Virus record (IMG/VR): IMGVR_UViG_3300025012_000043
Span: 32,001-96,000 of that record
Source of the DNA: a virus
DNA: 64,000 nucleotides
Strand: one strand, 5' to 3'
How positions within the stretch are numbered: position 1 is the stretch's first letter; every line of letters starts with the position of its first letter. The notes under the pieces are model-generated. The model had not been told where the DNA came from, did not search any database, and was given only the letters and a program-made list of their open reading frames with translations. Below are positions 13,662-23,077 of this stretch, in pieces. The position numbers were made by a program, and so were the translations under genes.

Positions 13662-15812
13662 TTATATTATACTAACATCATTTACTTTTTTAATGGTTAT
13701 AACATTATCAAACTCATCAACCAAATTTTTAAGATCAGAATGTGTAATAATCAAAATACGTTTAATCTTAGTTGATAAATATTTTAACACGTCTATTAAT
13801 ATTCTACGCTTACCATCATCTATCTTACCAATACCCTCATCTATCATTAAAATGTCTAATATATTATCTGGATTACGAACCCGCCATACTAAAAATAATG
13901 CTGCTCGAATACTTAAGTCTATCCAATACGCCTCTCCCCCGGAAAACCTAAATAATGGTAATATCTTGTCACCCTTCTTAACTAAAATCTTGAAAACATC
14001 CTTAGTACCCTCGCCAGATTTCTTTGGTTCCTTTAGTAATATTGCTATCGATACTTTTTGCCCACCATATTGTAATATATTGTTAGCAAATACCTCAATT
14101 TGGTCCTTCATAGCTTCAATTTGCATCGCTGGTACACCATTCGGGCCAAATGCCGACACCAATACATCATAAACACACTGCTCATTTACACACTCATTAT
14201 ATAATTTGGTAATCTTCTCAAGTTCGGCAAGTTTTTCAGTGTTTACCCTTATCATAGTCTCATTAGACGAAACAATACCTTGTAATTTATTGTTCTGGTC
14301 TTCTTTACTTTTTAAGTCGGCTTGGAATGAAGCGATATCAATAAGAAGTTTGATATGTTGATCACGCAACCCAATAATGATACTGGCCCCTTCTTTAATT
14401 TGCATTAATTCTATAGATATTGATGCATGCTTAATATTAGCATTATTCATTAAAGTATCTATATTATTTACATTAGCCTGAGCAGATTCCATTAATTCAT
14501 TTATATTATTACATTCAACCACTAATGGAGATATCTTGCCACACAAACTATCATATGAAGATTTAATATTAACATAATTACTTATATTATTCTCATATAA
14601 AATCACTTTAGACTGTAATTCGTCAATATCATGGCGTATACTTATGATCTCTGCAAATAATTGATCATGCTCATTTTTCATAGCAACAATTCTAGGTTGT
14701 AGTCTGTCACCACATAATGCTTCACACTTTACACTCAATATTGGGCACATATCACCGCAAGTACTTAAAGTATCTATTTGTTTTTTTAAGAAATCGATCC
14801 TAGTAATAAGCCCAGTTAAGCCTTCCTTTTTATTAATAAATACGGCCCTGTATGATACAAGTAATGCCGTATCTTTTTCTTGTTTATTTAGTATATCTTT
14901 AATATTGATCGAATTTATCTGGTTATTAATACTATCAACCTCTTTATCTATCGCAATTCTCCGGTCAACATACCCTTTTAATTGCTTTCTAATATTCCAC
15001 ATCTTTTGTGTATATTCTTCAATCTCTACCTTAATCTTTGATAAATTACTTAATTTCTCTTCTTCTAGAGCATTTTGAGTATTTATGGCACTAATCTGAC
15101 CAAATAACGATGCAGCATTGGTTTGTACGTTGGCTAGTATATTTTTGGCAATCTCTGTTTCTAGTATAAGGATATTGATTTTAATGTGTGTATCTTTTAT
15201 ATCACATAAAGCTTGCTCTATCTTGGTTGTTAAATCCTTACTATCGATATTATCAATACTAGTCTTATATTTTAATGCTTGTTGTTTAATCTCTAATAAT
15301 CTCTGTGACGCGATAGCTTGCTTTTCCTGCCATCTGTCCAAGCCAAGCATTTCAACAACCTTTTTTCTAGATTCGGTAGAAGTTAATTCGGAAAACGCTT
15401 TATCCTTGCCCTGTTGAAAATAAGCAGTCTTTATAAAAGTATCATATCCCATGCCAACTATATCATTAATTAATTTCTCCCCAGCATCCAAGGTAACGAA
15501 TTGTTGATTTGCGCCACACACATTAATATCAAGATTGGTGGTATTATTACCACGCCCCCGAGTAAGTTTGATTTGTTGAGGCAATGGAAATTGAACACTT
15601 ACTGACATATCTCCAGTAAGATCACGAATAAGATGGTCACCACCAGGAAATTCGGAGGTGCCACGTGCTTTACCCCAAACTGCATAAGTAACCCCTTCTA
15701 ATAAGCCTGACTTACCAACCCCATTATCACCACGGACTAAGGTCACTCCAGGGGGTATGTCAACGACAACATTATTCCCAAAAGCCAAAAAATTATTTAG
15801 TATGATTTGCAT
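13662..15812 (-). CDS. sbcC: SbcC/Rad50-like SMC ATPase
   Basis: Walker A GDNGVGKS, Q-loop YFQQG, long coiled coil with central Cys hook (CPILSVKC), FSGGE, LMIDEG, ITHS. Confidence 0.95.
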   Translation of the reverse strand: MQIILNNFLAFGNNVVVDIPPGVTLVRGDNGVGKSGLLEGVTYAVWGKARGTSEFPGGDHLIRDLTGDMSVSVQFPLPQQIKLTRGRGNNTTNLDINVCGANQQFVTLDAGEKLINDIVGMGYDTFIKTAYFQQGKDKAFSELTSTESRKKVVEMLGLDRWQEKQAIASQRLLEIKQQALKYKTSIDNIDSKDLTTKIEQALCDIKDTHIKINILILETEIAKNILANVQTNAASLFGQISAINTQNALEEEKLSNLSKIKVEIEEYTQKMWNIRKQLKGYVDRRIAIDKEVDSINNQINSINIKDILNKQEKDTALLVSYRAVFINKKEGLTGLITRIDFLKKQIDTLSTCGDMCPILSVKCEALCGDRLQPRIVAMKNEHDQLFAEIISIRHDIDELQSKVILYENNISNYVNIKSSYDSLCGKISPLVVECNNINELMESAQANVNNIDTLMNNANIKHASISIELMQIKEGASIIIGLRDQHIKLLIDIASFQADLKSKEDQNNKLQGIVSSNETMIRVNTEKLAELEKITKLYNECVNEQCVYDVLVSAFGPNGVPAMQIEAMKDQIEVFANNILQYGGQKVSIAILLKEPKKSGEGTKDVFKILVKKGDKILPLFRFSGGEAYWIDLSIRAALFLVWRVRNPDNILDILMIDEGIGKIDDGKRRILIDVLKYLSTKIKRILIITHSDLKNLVDEFDNVITIKKVNDVSII

Positions 15813-16150
15813 TATTGTATCTGCTTCCCATCAATTAATTTACTGGCAGAACACGCTTGGCAAATTTCAAATACAGCATTAGAACATTTTACACTATGGT
15901 TTACCATATTTCTAGACATTAACGCCACCATGTCACTAAGAATTTCATCTTTTAACGCTATATCATGCAATAATAATAAGGCACTTATACCAAGACATAA
16001 TTCGTAGGAATTATCTGCTACTTCTTTTAAAATAATCTCCTGTAAATACTTACACTTCATTGTAGGACACCCGATTTCTTGTCTATGATTATACAACGCT
16101 ATTACCTTTTCTTTAAACGCTGCTTCATCCATATAGGATATCCTTACCAA
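15812..16150 (-). CDS. Hypothetical protein
   Basis: 112 aa ORF between sbcD and sbcC. Confidence 0.5.
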   Translation of the reverse strand: MVRISYMDEAAFKEKVIALYNHRQEIGCPTMKCKYLQEIILKEVADNSYELCLGISALLLLHDIALKDEILSDMVALMSRNMVNHSVKCSNAVFEICQACSASKLIDGKQIQ

Positions 16151-17171
16151 TAATTTTTACTCTATCAATTATATCATTTCCGTATTTATCTGACAATGTA
16201 TCACAATATGCCTGAAACATTTTCTCATCATCAGTTATATCTAGGCTTTTAAATTCTTTTTTGCCTGATATTTCATACTCTATTTTTAAATCATACGCAT
16301 CATGAACTATAGGACCAATACCTCTTTCATATTCTTCTTGGGTACAAGATACCTTTAATTTTACCATCTTATTACTAATAACCGGGTCTAATAAATAATG
16401 TTCAAGTTGCGCCATCTTAATTTCTGCTATATGTGTATCACGACACCCAAGCCACAAATTGGTGGCAGACATTGTGTCTGTATCAAATAACACAACACGC
16501 TTATCACCACTCTCTCCAAAATTTGAATTCCTAATGCCCCCGACATATAATGCGCGGGTACCAATATCTTGGGGCGAATGAATATCACCAAGAAATGCAA
16601 ACTCAAAAGTTGGAATTGCTTCTAATGATTTAATGGAGGGAAAATTCTTAGATTGATTGCTTATCATTCTACTATTATTAAACTTTGCTTCAACAAATGG
16701 TAGATGAGCAAACAACACGAATTTTATACCCATCATTCTTAAATCATTACATTTAAACTCAAACCATTCAACCGTATTAGTCCTACGATGTACTTCCCAC
16801 GGCAACATAACGGCAACAATATCATCTTTAATACGAAATGTTGATTGCATTGTATCATATAAAAATACATTACTATGCAAATCAAGTGTTTTTATTTCAC
16901 TTAATAAATTTCTATCATCTGACAAATCATGATTACCAGTTAATATATGAACTCTAGTCCAATAAGGGAATGACTCCAGGAATTTATGAAATCTTAATTC
17001 TTCTGCTCCGCCTTTCTGTATATCTCTACGATGATAGATATCACCAAGCAACACAACATTCTCACATCCGTGCTCATTAACAAATTTAATAATTTTATCT
17101 AAACACTCATCGGTGTCACTAACCCATTGTGAATCTAAATGAATATCTCCGACTATTAAAACTTTGGACAT
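16125..17171 (-). CDS. sbcD: SbcD/Mre11-like nuclease
   Basis: GDIH, LGDIY, GNHD, AH, LGDIHSPQ phosphoesterase motifs; adjacent to sbcC. Confidence 0.95.
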   Translation of the reverse strand: MSKVLIVGDIHLDSQWVSDTDECLDKIIKFVNEHGCENVVLLGDIYHRRDIQKGGAEELRFHKFLESFPYWTRVHILTGNHDLSDDRNLLSEIKTLDLHSNVFLYDTMQSTFRIKDDIVAVMLPWEVHRRTNTVEWFEFKCNDLRMMGIKFVLFAHLPFVEAKFNNSRMISNQSKNFPSIKSLEAIPTFEFAFLGDIHSPQDIGTRALYVGGIRNSNFGESGDKRVVLFDTDTMSATNLWLGCRDTHIAEIKMAQLEHYLLDPVISNKMVKLKVSCTQEEYERGIGPIVHDAYDLKIEYEISGKKEFKSLDITDDEKMFQAYCDTLSDKYGNDIIDRVKIIGKDILYG

Positions 17172-17240
17172 CAGGCTACCTCCCTAATTTCTGACGCTAC
17201 CTCACGATAGCTCTCGTGGCTGATCCCCAGCCCGGCAATA
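17160..17240 (-). ncRNA. Putative TnpB omega/reRNA scaffold, 3' part
   Basis: Two stem-loops in the last codons: GGCTG-GGGAT-CAGCC (17218-17232) and GCTATC-GTGA-GGTAGC with GNRA loop (17196-17211), then GGGAGG...GATGTCCA resembling an IS605 right end. Boundaries approximate. Confidence 0.45.
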
Positions 17241-18247
17241 AGAGTGTTGATCGCAGCATTAACATCGCGATCATGAACCGTCCCACAAACGTTACACTCC
17301 CAGTACCTTACCTTCAAGCCTGATTTCCCTGTTGGACCAGAACGCGCCCCACAGGTAGAACAGGTCATGGTGGAAAACTTAGATGGCACTTCGATATACT
17401 CTCTACCGCCTGCACGGCATTTGTAAGAAAGCATTGATCGAAGTTGTCCGTGGGCAGCTGCTCCCACGGACTTGCCAAACCCTGAACGAGCCAAACCACC
17501 CAAATTATCCTTACTAATCGCAATGACTTGATTCTTGGACACTAATTCACGAGATATCTTATGATTTCTGTCCTTGCGCTGATTCTTAATCCTTTCATGA
17601 AGTCTAGCAACTTGTTTACGATTTATACCACGCTGGGCTTGGCCCAAACGGATTAAATTATTCTGTAATTCCTTGGGGTGTTCAATCTTTTCACCAGTTG
17701 AAAGTGTAAGTAAGGTAACATATCCAGGGTCTATACCAACCTGATCATCAGAAACATGAGGGATAACATTAGGTTGGGCATTTATATTTAAACACAAGTA
17801 CCAGCCAGAAGCCCGTTTAATAATGCGGCCTGAATTTATCTTGCCTTCAGGGATATCCTGTTTATGGAATTTTACTAAACCTAGCAATGGCATTCTAACC
17901 CTATTATTTAGGGGTGGTTTAATGGGGTCTGGAAATGGGATAGAATTTAACTTATTTCGACGGCCCTTAAATCTTGGCTTCCTAGAAATTTTCTTAAAAC
18001 AACGTTGCCAAGATAACCAAGTTTGATCTAACATGCCCTGTATAGTATGGCTGGGGATGCCAAGTTTGCCACTATGGCCAGTGAGTAAATTCTGAAATGT
18101 TTTTCGTGAATAATAAACCTTATCCCTGGCATCTAACTCAATTTTACGAATAGCCCAATTCCAGACAGAAGTAAGATGAAACAGCCAAGTATTTAACTGG
18201 GCCTCTTGAACCTTGGTTAACTTTAATTTACGTTGATATTGAATCAT
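17171..18247 (-). mobile_element. tnpB: TnpB (IS200/IS605 family) RNA-guided nuclease, no tnpA in window
   Basis: RuvC-I GIDPG, Zn finger TCSTC...CNVC, RuvC-III HDRDVNAAIN; RuvC-II reads ISKDN where IEDL is expected. Confidence 0.9.
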
Positions 18248-18268
18248 TCTTATTTTATCGTAGTACTT

Positions 18269-18478
18269 TCATTTGTCGTTAAACGACACACGAATTTTAA
18301 TGCCTTCTTTTTTACCTAAAGAAATTAATATATCAGCTAAATCTTTAAGTGCAAATTGAATTTGGTCATGTAAATGATACCCAGTTGGTTTATTACATTT
18401 CTCATTTATATATCTTTTCATAACATCTCGTACATCAACATTAACTTCAATATTTGTGGTGACTGATACCATTGTCAT
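18269..18478 (-). CDS. Hypothetical protein
   Basis: 69 aa, follows dnaE with GGGAG RBS. Confidence 0.55.
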   Translation of the reverse strand: MTMVSVTTNIEVNVDVRDVMKRYINEKCNKPTGYHLHDQIQFALKDLADILISLGKKEGIKIRVSFNDK

Positions 18479-18480
18479 GT

Positions 18481-21400
18481 CTACTCCCTAATTACCGCAT
18501 ATATAGTCTGCCCAACAATATCTGTTAACGCTTTGGCTATAGTATTATTCAATATATCGAGATTCACAATATCACCAACAACCTGCTTAATTAACATCCC
18601 CTCCATTTTTGATGGTTGCTTCATAAACCCAAGATTCTTGATCTTAATACCATATTGTGGCAATATTGGTTTACCAATTAATGTAAGCCCCTTGCCACGC
18701 TTACTACTGTATTTTACTATTGCCTTCAAAATAACTGGCGCAAATTTTTTGGCTAATGATGTCTTAATACACCCATAATTCACTCCACTAATAATCTTGT
18801 CATCTAAGTCTTCCGTATTAACATTAATATTCCTATCATGACATCCCTCTCGATCTATTAAAGAAACTGACCCAAATTTATTCCATGTTTGATCTTTCTT
18901 TGGATATATAACCTCAATCCCATTATTAATCCCATATATATATACGACTGATTGTGTTGGTAATGCTAGTGCCTTAGTAAGGGAGATGGCACCAACTGAA
19001 TCTGCTAATGCCTGATACAAATCCAATACTGGATCAACATCAAGAAGTCCTATAGTACCTGATTCATTTTCCAATATCTCAGCCGACTCATACTCTTCTT
19101 GCTTAACAAACCATGGCATAGTAATCATATTATTTGGTAGATCTAAACTAATCTGCCCATTCTCCATTGCTTTTTTATAGGCTGGCTTGTCAAATGCCCC
19201 AGATTCATTATATTTAATTGTCGCAGTTTTAATAGCTATACTCTTAGTACGTACATATTTCTTAATCTCTTGTATGTTTTTAACGATATCCTTCCTATTT
19301 AATGTGGGATCAAACAAAAACGCTCCAGCCAATGCTAATTGTGAAATCTGGTTAGATGGGACGCTTTTGTTACGATTAATAAAATCAGCAAAACATTTAT
19401 ATTCTCCATTCATCTCACGTTCTTTAATAACCACTTTAGCCGATGATTCACCGATTCCCTTCACAGAAGACAAGCCAATATAAATAGTATCTTTGAAAGC
19501 AGAAAATACTAGTTTTGACTTATTAATATTTGGCCTAGAGATCTTAATCCCCAATTTCTTACAGTCCGCTATTATAATTGAATGCTGGTCTGAATCAGTC
19601 ATTATAAGATTGGCGCACATAAATTCTGTAGGATAATTTGCCTTCAAATATGCGGTTATATAAGTAATAACACCATACGCCGCAGCATGAGCCTTCGGCC
19701 ACATATACCTTGCTGATGGCTTAATAAGCCCAAATATATATTCAGCGAATTCTTTTGTTTTGCCAAATCTAATAGCACTAGTTATAAATTTCTCACCCTC
19801 TTCGTCAATTTCTTTGACTAATTTTTTACCAACAACCTTGCGCAAATGATCGGCTTCGGCCATTGAATATCCAGCCACCCTACGTGCTATTTCCATGATC
19901 TGTTCTTGAAATAACATCATATAATGTGTAGGCGCAAGAACATCATCAATACATGGGTCAATTTTTGTCGGTGGCATCAACCCATTTTTAGTTCTTATAT
20001 ATTTCTCAGCCATAGACATTTTGATTACTTCATCATATGCCAAGGCCCCTGGCCTATATAAAGCATTCATGGCTATGATATGCTCAAATTCTGTAGGAAT
20101 CAATCCTTTCATCATATTTGTAAACCCATCACTTTCAGCCTGGAAAACACGACACGTATTGCCATCTTGTAATAATTTAAACGTTTTCATGTCATCAAGC
20201 GGAAGTGTATATGGGTCAATATTAACCCCGTGATTTTCTTTGATCAACTCACATGTGATCTTAATAATATCTAATGTTGTTAAGCCAAGCAAATCAAATT
20301 TAACCAGCCCTACCTTTGATGCGACATACATATCACACATAAGCGCTGTTTCTGACTCACTATTTACCTTAAATGTTGGTATTATATCACTAAACCGATC
20401 TTTTGAAATAATAACTCCCGATGCATGGATAGACACCGATTTAGGATTACCAGATAATCCCATAGCAAAATCATACCAGCTTTTATCAACACGTGGGGAT
20501 TTAAAGGCTTTCATCTTCTCCATAGCAGATATGATACTCTCTTCTTCTCTTTTGGCGGTCTCTTCAAATAACTCCTTGGGTTCCAATTCATCCAATGCCC
20601 CGAGATCTTTAATTAAATCATCTACTCGCCTACGATCTGGTTCTATTGCTCGGATGGCCTCACGAATAGCTAACTTAGTAGTCATATTATTAAATGTTGC
20701 AATCTTAGATACCTTGTCAGCACCAAAGATTGATTGAACTATCTCAATTACTTCTGGCCGCCGCCGTTGTTCAAAATCAATATCAACATCTGGAAGATCA
20801 ATACGACTGGGATTTAAAAACCTTTCAAACATGAGTTTATATTTAATCGGATCTATACCAGAAATCCCGAGAGCAAACAATACAAGACTACCAGCACTAC
20901 TTCCCCGGCCCGGTCCAATCAAGATCCCTCTTTTACGCACTTCCTTAATAACAATACCAAGGATTAGAAAGTAAGAAGAAAAATTGAGTTTCGAAATAAT
21001 CCCCAATTCATATTCTAATCTATCTTTGTACTCCTTGGTGGCAACCCCTCTAGTTTTAAGGCCCTCATAAGCAAGAGTCTTTAAATATTCATCATTGGTC
21101 TCTATGTTTGCAGGTAAGAACGACTTGGGTAATTCTGGCATATACTTACCCATTTTGAACTCTATATTATAATCTTCTAACTTTTCATAGATCTCCATGG
21201 TATTATCAAATGCTACCTTAGGAATATTTGACGCAAACTTCTCTAATTCACCACGAGTCTTCATATAATATTCAGCATTCAGAATAGCTGGCTTACTTAT
21301 GTCGTCTGGAAATTCACCATATACTACCCCACGTTTTCTATCTAAAATATGTGTACCAAACTGAAGTGATAACAGTGCATCCTGAACTTCAGCATCACTT

Positions 21401-22017
21401 TTATTTAAATAATGAACATCATTAGTAATAATCGGCTTAATATGAAACTTTTCTGCCATTTCTAACATAACATCTACCCAACCAGCTTGCATTGGTACGC
21501 CGGTTTCCATGACTTCCACATAAAGGTCATCTTTAAAAATTGATTTTAAACGAGATACTGTGGCCACAGCCTCATCAGCTTTATCATTATAAATGTCTCT
21601 AGCAATTAACCCGTGTAAACATGCAGTTGAACAGATAATGCCCTCACTAAATCTGGCAATAACATCTAATGACATTCTTGGCTTATAATAAAAATATTCA
21701 AAAGCATCAGACACTATCTTTATTAAATTTTGATATCCAATACGATTCTTAGCGATTAAAACTATATGCCCAAGTTTCTCTCTACCTTCAAATTTCCTCT
21801 CTTTTGATACATACCCCTCAATGCCTATGCCGCACTTCAAATCAAACTCTTTGCAAGCCTCGTAAAATGGAATGGCACCAAACATTGTGCCATGGTCAGT
21901 TAAACAAGCCCCCTGAAACCCAAGCTTCTTGGTATGCTCTACTATTTTCTTAGGTGATGTGGTGCCGTCCATCAATGAATAAAATGAGTGCTGGTGGCAA
22001 TGTATGAAATCTTGCAT
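18481..22017 (-). CDS. dnaE: DNA polymerase III alpha subunit (family C)
   Basis: PHP motifs HQH, TDHG, NDVH; GPGRGSSAGS, FERFLNPSR, catalytic PDVDID, HASG, KFDLLGL, KAHAAAY. Start set at MQDFIH. Confidence 0.97.
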   Translation of the reverse strand: MQDFIHCHQHSFYSLMDGTTSPKKIVEHTKKLGFQGACLTDHGTMFGAIPFYEACKEFDLKCGIGIEGYVSKERKFEGREKLGHIVLIAKNRIGYQNLIKIVSDAFEYFYYKPRMSLDVIARFSEGIICSTACLHGLIARDIYNDKADEAVATVSRLKSIFKDDLYVEVMETGVPMQAGWVDVMLEMAEKFHIKPIITNDVHYLNKSDAEVQDALLSLQFGTHILDRKRGVVYGEFPDDISKPAILNAEYYMKTRGELEKFASNIPKVAFDNTMEIYEKLEDYNIEFKMGKYMPELPKSFLPANIETNDEYLKTLAYEGLKTRGVATKEYKDRLEYELGIISKLNFSSYFLILGIVIKEVRKRGILIGPGRGSSAGSLVLFALGISGIDPIKYKLMFERFLNPSRIDLPDVDIDFEQRRRPEVIEIVQSIFGADKVSKIATFNNMTTKLAIREAIRAIEPDRRRVDDLIKDLGALDELEPKELFEETAKREEESIISAMEKMKAFKSPRVDKSWYDFAMGLSGNPKSVSIHASGVIISKDRFSDIIPTFKVNSESETALMCDMYVASKVGLVKFDLLGLTTLDIIKITCELIKENHGVNIDPYTLPLDDMKTFKLLQDGNTCRVFQAESDGFTNMMKGLIPTEFEHIIAMNALYRPGALAYDEVIKMSMAEKYIRTKNGLMPPTKIDPCIDDVLAPTHYMMLFQEQIMEIARRVAGYSMAEADHLRKVVGKKLVKEIDEEGEKFITSAIRFGKTKEFAEYIFGLIKPSARYMWPKAHAAAYGVITYITAYLKANYPTEFMCANLIMTDSDQHSIIIADCKKLGIKISRPNINKSKLVFSAFKDTIYIGLSSVKGIGESSAKVVIKEREMNGEYKCFADFINRNKSVPSNQISQLALAGAFLFDPTLNRKDIVKNIQEIKKYVRTKSIAIKTATIKYNESGAFDKPAYKKAMENGQISLDLPNNMITMPWFVKQEEYESAEILENESGTIGLLDVDPVLDLYQALADSVGAISLTKALALPTQSVVYIYGINNGIEVIYPKKDQTWNKFGSVSLIDREGCHDRNINVNTEDLDDKIISGVNYGCIKTSLAKKFAPVILKAIVKYSSKRGKGLTLIGKPILPQYGIKIKNLGFMKQPSKMEGMLIKQVVGDIVNLDILNNTIAKALTDIVGQTIYAVIRE

Positions 22018-22018
22018 G

Positions 22019-23077
22019 TTATCCTTTCTTACTGTTTCTTCTTGCGTACACATTATTAAATATTACATCCATAGTTTCTGGTAATAAAGTACTGGTTATA
22101 ATATTCAATTGTTTCTTTTCTATCGTATTCATGGCCTCCATAACCATTGATCTAATATTACCTGGAGCATGAATTAGTCCTGATATGGCATTATACCAAT
22201 CACGAGGCCGTTGCTCTTCTACTAATATACCATTTACACCATTAGTAATAACTTCTTGATATGGAACAATATTAGATGCCACTGTAACCGCACCAACCGC
22301 CGTATACTCTAACCATTTAATATTACTCTTACTCTTATTAAAAATATTGTGTTCAAGTGGTACTATACCAATATGTGGCTGAATAGATACCAATGTTTGT
22401 AGATAGTCTTTAACTGGTAACCAAGGTATATACTTAATACGAGTATCATCCTTTAGCCCTGCTGGTATCCATCCCATAAAAAACAATTTAATCTTATCAC
22501 CAAAGGTATCGAGTAACTTAATAATCGCTCCCTCTACACCCTTAAAATCATCAATATGTGAAGGCCCTCCAGCATATACTATGCGTATTTCTTTATCAAC
22601 ATTATATGGGCGCTGAGCAATAAAATTTTTGTCTAATTCAATCATATTAGGGATACAATAAATATTCCTATTATAACATTTCATTTGATTCTTTAAAAAT
22701 TCGGTAGAAACTATAACTGCATCCGCTGATTTCATAAAATTTCTAACATTTTGCTTAGCATTATTATCTATAAACTTATAGGCAGGATTTATGGGCCGTA
22801 CATTAAAGAAATCATCATCAGTTTCATATCCCACTATTGCACCAGATTCCTTTGCGGCATTCCATAACGGTTTAACTTTGTCCTCAAAATGCCTTTGGAA
22901 TATAATCATATCATAACAATACATATCAGCTATCTGTAATTCAGTAGCACAAACTATATGATATATATCAGTATTTAATTGTAAATACCAGGCTGGTAAC
23001 ATACACCGATAGTTTCCACAGCCTTGCCGATCGGAAAGCGTATATAACAATTTTCTTTTATTTACTCGCTTCCTCAT
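22019..23077 (-). CDS. GT-B glycosyltransferase (GT4-like)
   Basis: GCGNYR, FQR, YETDD, ADAVIVST, PN, GIVPL..N.FNKSKSNIKWLEY. Confidence 0.85.
   Translation of the reverse strand: MRKRVNKRKLLYTLSDRQGCGNYRCMLPAWYLQLNTDIYHIVCATELQIADMYCYDMIIFQRHFEDKVKPLWNAAKESGAIVGYETDDDFFNVRPINPAYKFIDNNAKQNVRNFMKSADAVIVSTEFLKNQMKCYNRNIYCIPNMIELDKNFIAQRPYNVDKEIRIVYAGGPSHIDDFKGVEGAIIKLLDTFGDKIKLFFMGWIPAGLKDDTRIKYIPWLPVKDYLQTLVSIQPHIGIVPLEHNIFNKSKSNIKWLEYTAVGAVTVASNIVPYQEVITNGVNGILVEEQRPRDWYNAISGLIHAPGNIRSMVMEAMNTIEKKQLNIITSTLLPETMDVIFNNVYARRNSKKG

What the first reader, a model, noticed from the sequence alone, without database searches (positions are those of the whole stretch)
17150..18272. TnpA-less TnpB that appears to insert just inside a gene start and supply a recoded replacement start
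Seen: the upstream gene ends ATGA, and that ATG (18272) opens MKVLR* (ATG AAA GTA CTA). Then come CGATAAAATAAGA, tnpB, and GGGAGG...TGATG overlapping sbcD, which starts MSKVLIVGDIH (ATG TCC AAA GTT TTA). The sbcD N-terminus therefore appears on both sides of tnpB with different codons. The tnpB 3' end has RNA hairpins but I see no strong terminal TnpA hairpin. Established: TnpB guides come from DNA flanking the right end and cut element-free alleles. Inference: a fitness-neutral, RNA-guided homing element whose guide would be the conserved sbcD 5' region, spreading between co-infecting phages by recombination. Caveat: the duplication is only four codons.
Basis: partly seen in the sequence, partly recalled or inferred. 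Interest (0 to 1): 0.72.

Follow-up and report, generated by a model that had tools for sequence, protein, structure and literature searches.

The report
TnpB element patching phage sbcD start
A selfish RNA-guided nuclease gene (tnpB) that has lost its transposase sits five bases into a phage's sbcD repair-nuclease gene, and its own right end supplies a new ribosome-binding site and start codon, so the phage gene still works while the element's guide RNA points at uninterrupted copies of that gene.

Summary
Four independent relatives without tnpB start sbcD at the ATGA stop/start overlap with the upstream small ORF (MKILIVGD). The window keeps that ATG to the left of tnpB.

A pseudoknot conserved across the TnpB family, with a compensatory change in the window, puts the right end at ...GATGTCCAA (17164). 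The element therefore supplies only the ribosome-binding site, ATG, TCC and AA. AAA GTT TTA is native sbcD and is the start of the predicted 16-nt guide (17163-17148). The old ATGAA matches the family's target motif (NTGAA).

Both TnpA hairpins are gone. The right one is replaced by an unstructured GGGAGG segment. The left stub codons (GTA CTA) are probably a relic of an uninterrupted allele, but this is not proven.

TnpB looks selected. It departs at 4 of 124 conserved columns, has an 80%-identical ungapped relative, and gives a confident fold. The canonical RuvC-II glutamate is Ser in the 121 closest family proteins, with an invariant Glu in strand 5.

RNA-guided homing is plausible but untested, and no empty allele was seen in four sequencing runs.

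Four other phage loci of the same family open the downstream gene from their right end. This scan has noted similar cases on other DNA. I rate it a new variant of a known kind.

The parts
18269..18478 (-). Upstream 69-aa ORF. Its stop TGA overlaps the ancestral sbcD ATG (ATGA).
   Evidence: The same ORF and ATGA overlap occur in the tnpB-less relatives L016, L020 and L022.
18268..18272 (-). ATGAA: the ancestral sbcD start codon plus two bases. It is the predicted transposon-adjacent motif (TAM) next to the left end.
   Evidence: Eight elements of the family carry (T/A/C)(T/A)GAA where conservation begins at the left end: L002, L004, L014, L034, L037, L114, L115, L116. Seven of them have the left hairpin, 16-18 nt downstream; L037 has none. 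The family's right-end motif is TTCAA. Meers et al. (PMC10055086) report that TAM and right-end motif differ at only a few positions. All four empty alleles have ATGAA here.
18255..18272 (-). Stub mini-ORF ATG AAA GTA CTA CGA TAA (MKVLR*).
   Evidence: It ends 7 nt before the tnpB ATG, so it may pass ribosomes from the 69-aa ORF on to tnpB (inference).
18261..18267 (-). AGTACTA: probably a relic of sbcD codons 2-4 from an uninterrupted allele. Alternatively it is the first bases of a degenerate left end.
   Evidence: All eight left ends listed for the TAM start with C after it, seven with CA/CG and L037 with CAG. The window does not. Both copies encode K-V-L whereas the relatives have K-I-L. 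DNA similarity alone is not significant.
18248..18260 (-). CGATAAAATAAGA: all that is left of the left end. The subterminal hairpin is gone.
   Evidence: Left ends of TnpA-less relatives are 72-79 nt long with a hairpin (L002, L003).
17171..18247 (-). tnpB, 358 aa, intact.
   Evidence: Pfam. ISDra2 TnpB in the PDB, E 4.6e-20. AF2 pLDDT 86.7, pTM 0.77. Departs at 4 of 124 family-conserved columns. An 80%-identical ungapped relative, P0017.
17164..17300 (-). Omega-RNA scaffold overlapping the 3' end of tnpB. Stem 1 is 17232-17228 paired with 17222-17218. Its loop triplet GGA (17226-17224) pairs with UCC (17168-17166) as the pseudoknot. The 5' limit of the scaffold is approximate.
   Evidence: The architecture follows ISDra2 (PMC10097598).
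17173..17186 (-). TAGGGAGGTAGCCT: a 14-nt unstructured segment where relatives have the right-end hairpin (omega-RNA stem 4). It contains the Shine-Dalgarno GGGAGG (17184-17179).
   Evidence: Alignments; sequence.
17164..17172 (-). Right-end tail GATGTCCAA. It holds the last bases of the tnpB stop (TGA, 17173-17171), the new sbcD ATG (17171-17169), the Ser codon TCC, two thirds of the Lys codon, and the 3' strand of the pseudoknot.
   Evidence: It aligns with the family tail GA(G/T)G(T/C)TCAA. L003 and L037 have GATGTTCAA with the ATG at the same offset of -8.
17148..17163 (-). Predicted 16-nt guide AGTTTTAATAGTCGGA, covering sbcD codons 3-8 (last base of Lys3 to first base of Asp8).
   Evidence: It lies directly 3' of the pseudoknot, as in ISDra2. 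It is unique in the 112.6-kb record.
16125..17171 (-). sbcD (Mre11-type phosphoesterase), now starting MSKVLIVGDIH.
   Evidence: Pfam Metallophos. Fifteen homologues aligned.

Best explanation
A TnpA-less IS200/IS605-type tnpB plus omega-RNA module is fixed five bases inside phage sbcD.

Shown:
- It lies directly after ATGAA, which is both the old start codon plus AA and the family's target motif.
- Its right-end tail does several jobs at once. GGGAGG is the ribosome-binding site. UGAUG couples the tnpB stop to a new AUG. AUG UCC AA restores the reading frame, giving M-S-K instead of M-K. UCC is also the 3' strand of the guide-RNA pseudoknot.
- The two hairpins that TnpA needs have been lost, so the element cannot transpose.

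Inferred:
- The RNA made from the tnpB 3' end carries sbcD bases 6-21 of the uninterrupted gene (17163-17148) as its guide.
- TnpB with this RNA cuts uninterrupted sbcD alleles (ATGAA followed by the guide match) in closely related co-infecting phages.
- Repair from the tnpB-bearing genome then copies the element in, or excludes the rival's markers. The carrier itself is safe, because its target is preceded by TCCAA rather than the TAM.
For: Anatomy:
- Four independent empty alleles exist.
- The stem-1 and pseudoknot structure is 98% paired (pseudoknot helix 97%) in 13 family sequences, against 27-48% when the partners are slid. Pseudoknot pair types are GAA/UUC, GAG/CUC and GAU/AUC. The window has GGA/UCC, a compensatory change.
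- The TAM NTGAA is found beside eight left ends of the family.

Selection on TnpB:
- It departs at 4 of 124 columns that are at least 95% conserved. The family mean is 1.8 and the 95th percentile 5.1.
- P0017 is 80% identical, has no gaps, and ends in the same ...IREVA.
- The AF2 model has pLDDT 86.7.
- D173, D326 and D328 are kept. Glu286 is invariant in 121 of 121 close family proteins and lies in strand 5.

Recurrence:
- L003 and L037 have an ATG at -8 in the tail, opening ORFs of 1146 and 34 aa. L012 and L040 also open the downstream gene from the tail.

Patchiness:
- SbcD proteins with one extra residue after Met (MSK, MST, MGK) are scattered among MKIL sisters on the tree.

The concept of TnpA-independent homing into phages or plasmids is proposed in PMC13565253.
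Against: - The canonical RuvC-II Glu is Ser245, so cleavage is not assured. This holds for all 121 close family proteins aligned, and for the family loci that still have TnpA and intact ends (L004, L009, L014).
- Stem 4, which contacts the WED domain in ISDra2, is missing, so the RNA may bind poorly.
- The four known empty alleles match the guide poorly. L016, the only one compared base by base, matches at 11 of 16 positions, with mismatches close to the TAM, so they are unlikely targets now (from the sequences).
- The left junction is not the canonical TAM/left-end junction.
- There are no RNA data.
Confidence: 0.6

Rival explanations
1. Immobilised passenger. The element inserted once by TnpA supplied in trans from a host copy, then lost both hairpins. 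It now persists only because deleting it would take away the ribosome-binding site and start codon of sbcD. TnpB has no present role.
For: - Both hairpins are lost and there is no TnpA.
- The canonical RuvC-II Glu is absent.
- The same tnpB-bearing sequence, without a single difference, was found in all four runs examined.
- L029 shows that tnpB can be deleted while the tail stays.
Against: - Amino-acid conservation is at family level, including every invariant acidic residue.
- The 80%-identical relative has no gaps.
- The pseudoknot kept its pairing through a two-sided change.
- Selection merely to keep the frame open for translational coupling would not preserve these features.
Confidence: 0.28
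2. The element inserted after codon 4 (CTA) and itself carries ATG TCC AAA GTT TTA as a recoded copy. The guide begins at ATAGTC.
For: K-V-L is encoded on both sides with different codons.
Against: - The family right end and the pseudoknot 3' strand align to GATGTCCAA, and in ISDra2 the guide starts directly after the pseudoknot.
- ATGAA matches the family TAM, whereas GTACTA does not.
- The DNA similarity of the two copies is at chance level.
Confidence: 0.06
3. A domesticated RNA-guided regulator of the TldR kind. A nuclease-dead TnpB would bind DNA through its guide to repress a phage or host gene.
For: The RuvC-II Glu is missing. Phage-encoded TldR proteins are known (papers listed).
Against: - RuvC-I and RuvC-III Asp residues and an invariant strand-5 Glu are retained.
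- There is no C-terminal truncation.
- The same active-site pattern occurs in family members with TnpA and intact ends.
- The guide has no second match in the phage, and its own site lacks the TAM.
Confidence: 0.05

Closest known systems
IS200/IS605-family TnpB with omega RNA (OMEGA), e.g. ISDra2 (PDB 8EXA, 8H1J) and the Geobacillus ISGst elements (Meers et al., PMC10055086)
   Same: - The TnpB fold and domains.
- A guide RNA that overlaps the 3' end of tnpB.
- A pseudoknot formed by the last bases before the guide.
- A 5-nt TAM beside the left end that resembles the right-end motif (TTGAA against TTCAA here; the ISDra2 TAM is TTGAT).
- The guide is the DNA flanking the right end.
   Different: - No TnpA, and neither subterminal hairpin, so no stem 4.
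- The canonical RuvC-II Glu is replaced by Ser, with a conserved Glu in strand 5.
- The element lies inside the first two codons of a phage gene, and its right-end tail doubles as ribosome-binding site and start codon.
Free-standing homing endonuclease genes of T4-like phages (Seg, Mob) and intron-encoded ones
   Same: - A nuclease gene wedged between or into conserved replication and recombination genes.
- Present in some relatives and absent in others.
- Expected to act during co-infection.
- The cost to the carrier is neutralised.
   Different: - Target recognition would be by RNA guide plus TAM.
- The carrier is protected by separating the TAM from the target, not by sequence polymorphism.
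- The host gene is rescued by a translational patch rather than by splicing.
IStrons (group I intron plus IS607/IS605 TnpB; PMC10690162)
   Same: A TnpB element that sits inside a gene and removes its own fitness cost. One RNA segment serves more than one function.
   Different: There is no intron (Rfam scan negative). Rescue is at the level of translation start, and adds one residue to the protein.
TnpB clades with a rearranged RuvC-II site (Altae-Tran et al. 2023, PMC10691335)
   Same: The canonical Glu is lost throughout a clade, with a conserved substitute Glu placed in strand 5. Some such branches are enriched in viruses.
   Different: Which named branch this clade belongs to was not determined. 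Activity of this arrangement is untested.

Membership tests
IS200/IS605 TnpB-omega RNA element | TnpB protein with RuvC and zinc-ribbon domains | tested here: met
   Pfam PF01385, PF07282 and PF12323. ISDra2 TnpB, E 4.6e-20. AF2 pLDDT 86.7.
IS200/IS605 TnpB-omega RNA element | RuvC catalytic D-E-D triad | tested here: inconclusive
   D173, D326 and D328 are present. The canonical Glu position is Ser245 in 121 of 121 close family proteins. Glu286 in strand 5 is invariant in the same 121. Active-site geometry was not measured.
IS200/IS605 TnpB-omega RNA element | Omega-RNA scaffold at the tnpB 3' end with a guide-adjacent pseudoknot | tested here: met
   Stem 1 and the pseudoknot covary across 13 sequences. 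The window keeps the pairing through a two-sided change.
IS200/IS605 TnpB-omega RNA element | Subterminal left-end and right-end hairpins recognised by TnpA | tested here: not met
   The left end is reduced to 13-20 nt. The right hairpin is replaced by 14 unstructured nt.
IS200/IS605 TnpB-omega RNA element | Y1 transposase TnpA in the element or genome | tested here: not met
   No PF01797 match in the 112.6-kb record, which is estimated 76% complete.
IS200/IS605 TnpB-omega RNA element | The family TAM lies directly 5' of the element | tested here: met
   ATGAA in the window against NTGAA beside eight left ends of the family.
Homing endonuclease gene (functional class) | Presence/absence polymorphism at one locus among relatives | tested here: met
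   Four empty alleles against the window. SbcD N-terminus types are patchy on the tree.
Homing endonuclease gene (functional class) | The nuclease cuts the empty allele and the element is copied in | not testable with these tools
   Needs a cleavage or co-infection assay.
TldR (nuclease-dead TnpB-like repressors) | Loss of RuvC catalytic residues or a C-terminal truncation, with a guide matching a promoter | tested here: not met
   Two Asp residues and the strand-5 Glu are retained, and the protein is full length. The guide has no other match in the phage.
IStron | A group I intron around the element | tested here: not met
   The permissive Rfam scan of 16500-18800 found no intron.

The most novel reading that the evidence does not exclude
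This TnpB family is pre-adapted to colonise the first codons of essential phage genes.

- Its target motif (NTGAA or TTGAT) looks like a start codon plus two bases.
- Its right-end tail (GGGG)AGGTTCAA needs a single G-to-T change to become an in-frame ATG at -8. The adjacent hairpin can be swapped for a free Shine-Dalgarno sequence.
- The result is a translational counterpart of a self-splicing intron. An RNA-guided homing element could spread among co-infecting phages at almost no cost.
- When tnpB is later deleted, a one- or two-residue N-terminal scar is left behind. L029 shows this, and the MGK and MST forms of SbcD may be further cases.
Probability: 0.35. Interest if true: 0.82.

Novelty: new variant of a known kind. 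Interest (0 to 1): 0.68.

Why it matters
TnpB is the ancestor of Cas12. Its known role is to keep a transposon in place after TnpA has excised it.

A TnpA-less copy in a phage, aimed at the uninterrupted form of the gene it sits in, would be a natural RNA-guided homing element. That role has been proposed in theory, and plasmid experiments have been interpreted that way, but I found no documented case in wild phages.

The overlapping code in the right-end tail is compact. One short stretch serves as pseudoknot strand, nuclease-gene stop, ribosome-binding site, host-gene start and frame repair. It shows how a selfish element can enter an essential gene without an intron.

The locus also gives a fully specified test: protein, scaffold, TAM and 16-nt target. 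It offers a small TnpB with an unusual active site and a guide RNA that lacks stem 4.

Tried and rejected
- GenBank phages hold nothing similar, by DNA or by the SbcD protein.
The contigs of P0017 (the closest TnpB) and of the SbcD proteins starting MGK or MST (P0008, P0010, P0012) could therefore not be read.
- Contigs of four public runs, from four studies, were laid on 15800-19600. All were identical to the window, some bridged both junctions, and no joint skipped tnpB. Contigs drop rare variants, so this says nothing about whether empty alleles are absent.
- The Rfam scan found no known RNA family.
- No empty-site relative of L003 was found in viral contigs.
- The stub compared with the right flank as DNA gave p about 0.9.
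- The guide has no second target in the phage. The only other hit has 3 mismatches, no better than the control pattern gives.
- The single-sequence fold of the 3' region is not unusually stable (z = -0.4).
- The promoter and terminator scans were uninformative, with no terminator found.
- I first took GGGAGGTAGCC to be the scaffold end. That placed the guide on the start codon and matched nothing, so I dropped it once the pseudoknot was found.
- I first took L029 to be a never-occupied site for L012. I rejected this because L029 keeps L012's right-end tail.
- The 10-nt repeat AATTAGGGAG (17180-17189 and 18484-18493) is about what chance gives in 1.5 kb.
Full report
**What is there**

The window is part of a 112.6-kb IMG/VR phage record. 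The minus strand carries, in order:
- dnaE (18481-22053);
- a 69-aa ORF (18269-18478);
- tnpB (17171-18247);
- sbcD (16125-17171);
- a 112-aa ORF;
- an SbcC-like ATPase gene.

GenBank phages hold nothing similar. The stretch occurs in 20 public groundwater, soil and sediment runs from 16 studies.

**Empty sites**

A DnaE search found a relative with 80% identity (L016, the same phage as L017 and L021). An SbcD profile found three more relatives in metagenomes: L020, L022 and L025. None of the four has tnpB. In all of them the small ORF ends ...AAATGA, and sbcD starts at that ATG: ATG AAR ATY CTY ATW GTN GGN GAY, which is MKILIVGD. The ATG at 18272 is therefore the ancestral sbcD start, and tnpB is an insertion inside the gene.

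**Where the element ends**

Thirteen loci of the same TnpB family were collected at first (51-68% identity). More were added later from viral contigs and bacterial genomes.

Canonical members end ...CAGGAATC, then a hairpin, then GAGG(T/C)TCAA. Three have a Y1 TnpA directly upstream (L004, L009, L014). Canonical members carry a matching hairpin at the left end.

In ISDra2 the last bases before the guide (-6 to -2, GUUCA) form a pseudoknot with a loop about 100 nt upstream. The guide-adjacent hairpin is stem 4 (PMC10097598).

In this family, the loop of a covarying stem pairs with tail positions -5 to -3:

| Loop / tail | Loci |
|---|---|
| GAA / UUC | four loci |
| GAG / CUC | four loci |
| GAU / AUC | L007, L012 |
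| GAG / UUC (one wobble pair) | L002 |
| GUG / CUC (one mismatch) | L014 |
| GGA / UCC (two-sided change at the middle pair) | the window |

Of the cells in the stem-1 plus pseudoknot structure, 98% are paired (97% in the pseudoknot helix alone), against 27-48% when the partners are slid by one to three columns.

This fixes the window's right end at ...CAGAAAT / TAGGGAGGTAGCCT / GATGTCCAA, with the last base at 17164. The guide then starts at 17163: AGTTTTAATAGTCGGA.

**The target motif**

At eight left ends of the family, conservation begins with (T/A/C)(T/A)GAA followed by C. These are L002, L004, L014, L034, L037, L114, L115 and L116. Seven of them carry the left hairpin, 16-18 nt downstream of the motif; L037 has lost it. 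This is one base away from the right-end motif TTCAA. Meers et al. describe the same relationship between TAM and right-end motif (PMC10055086). In the window the motif is ATGAA, which is the old start codon plus AA. All four empty alleles have it.

**How sbcD survives**

The insertion follows base 5 of the gene. The tail supplies ATG TCC AA. With the flanking A GTT TTA this reads M-S-K-V-L, in frame and one residue longer than the ancestral M-K-(I/V)-L.

The ATG comes from a G-to-T difference from the family consensus: GAGG becomes GATG. Its A is also the last base of the tnpB stop (TGATG).

Fourteen unstructured bases containing GGGAGG stand where relatives have stem 4. They put a free Shine-Dalgarno sequence 7 nt before the ATG.

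So about 20 bases act at once as the end of the TnpB coding sequence, its stop, the ribosome-binding site, the host-gene start, the frame repair, the pseudoknot strand and the right-end motif.

**The left stub**

After ATGAA the window reads AGTACTA and then CGATAAAATAAGA, and then the tnpB ATG. The left-end hairpin is gone.

The eight left ends listed above start with C (CA or CG) after the motif. The window's does not. The stub encodes K-V-L, as the working copy does, whereas the relatives have K-I-L. I therefore think, at about 70%, that AGTACTA is a relic of an uninterrupted allele. It could have been joined illegitimately to the inner left end while the right side recombined within sbcD.

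The DNA match is only 5 of 7 and not significant on its own, so coincidence remains possible. The right-hand K-V-L codons are native sbcD.

**Is TnpB alive?**

- The ORF is intact.
- It departs from the family at 4 of 124 columns that are at least 95% conserved. The family mean is 1.8 and the 95th percentile 5.1.
- Its closest relative (P0017, seen only in Logan assemblies) is 80% identical without a gap and ends in the same ...IREVA.
- AlphaFold2 gives pLDDT 86.7 and pTM 0.77.
- The canonical RuvC-II Glu is Ser245 in the window's TnpB and in all 120 close relatives aligned with it. Asp173, Asp326 and Asp328 are kept.
- Glu286 is invariant in the same 121 sequences and lies in strand 5. Altae-Tran et al. 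describe such an arrangement for rearranged clades that they expect to be active (PMC10691335).
- Activity is plausible but untested. Loss of stem 4 is a second unknown.

**Evidence bearing on homing**

- On an SbcD tree built without the N-termini, the window (MSK) is sister to a protein starting MKIL.
- P0010 (MST) is sister to the empty L016 protein.
- Two MGK proteins lie elsewhere on the tree.
- MSK, MST and MGK all fit a tail of the form ATG NNN A(A/C) joined to the flank.
- The known empty alleles match the guide poorly. L016, the one compared base by base, matches at 11 of 16 positions, so they are not present-day targets.

**Other loci of the family**

- L003 and L037 have GATGTTCAA, with the ATG at -8 opening ORFs of 1146 aa and 34 aa.
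- L012 (in front of a DnaN-like clamp gene) and L040 have also lost stem 4 to a segment containing a Shine-Dalgarno sequence. They keep pseudoknot pairing (GAU/AUC and GGU/ACC) and open the downstream gene from the tail.
- L029 is a 96%-identical relative of L012 without tnpB. It still has L012's tail (GGGAGGTGTTTGATG..TCAA). It is therefore a deletion scar, not a never-occupied site.

**Literature and earlier notes**

TnpB-driven retention of transposons, IStrons, phage-encoded TldR and rearranged RuvC clades are all known. TnpA-independent homing into phages or plasmids is discussed as a concept (PMC13565253). In the papers I searched, I found none describing a right end that rebuilds a host gene's start, and none documenting a TnpA-less phage TnpB aimed at its own empty site.

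This scan's earlier notes report similar start-codon insertions of TnpB elements in other phages. I verified only the sequence features of the L003 case.

Noticed in passing
L029:1030-1075 compared with L012:3922-4000 and L012:5080-5114: L029 lacks tnpB but keeps the right-end tail of L012's element (GGGAGGTGTTTGATG, then two codons ending TCAA) as the start of its DnaN-like clamp gene. It looks like a deletion between the old Shine-Dalgarno (CGGAAGAGGT) and the one inside the tail (CGGGAGGT). The loss of the element left a permanent N-terminal scar.
   Followed up: partly
L003:5081-5093 and L037:2283-2295: Two further family members have the tail GGGGATGTTCAA. Its ATG at -8 is in frame with the downstream gene (a 1146-aa tail-fibre-like protein and a 34-aa membrane peptide). 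L037 has also lost the left-end hairpin but keeps the canonical TTGAA/C junction.
   Followed up: partly
window 17490-17540 (tnpB residues about 236-252) and residue 286: The 121 closest family proteins all have Ser at the canonical RuvC-II Glu position (motif S-K-D-N) and an invariant Glu in strand 5 (Y-I-E-V), just before the zinc ribbon. This is a rearranged active site that includes members with TnpA and intact ends.
   Followed up: partly
window 17180-17189 and 18484-18493: The 10-nt AATTAGGGAG in the segment that replaced stem 4 is identical to the dnaE stop / 69-aa-ORF ribosome-binding region (DnaE ends ...IRE*, TnpB ends ...IREVA*). The patch may have been copied from the phage's own upstream junction. 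However, one such repeat is expected by chance in 1.5 kb.
   Followed up: partly
P0008, P0010, P0012 (SbcD homologues, alignment A1): These SbcD proteins start MGKIL or MSTIL instead of MKIL. This is what a right-end tail of the form ATG NNN A(A/C) joined to the flank would give. They may be further occupied or scarred alleles.
   Followed up: no
L009:3440-3560: Just upstream of the left end of L009's element lies an inverted copy of a family right end (the reverse complement of ...CCCCTAGC..GGGGAGGTTCAA). This suggests nested or head-to-head insertions.
   Followed up: no
L003:2147-3313 (minus strand): The same phage contig carries a second, unrelated TnpB (388 aa) with the canonical RuvC-II motif AEDLN.
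   Followed up: no
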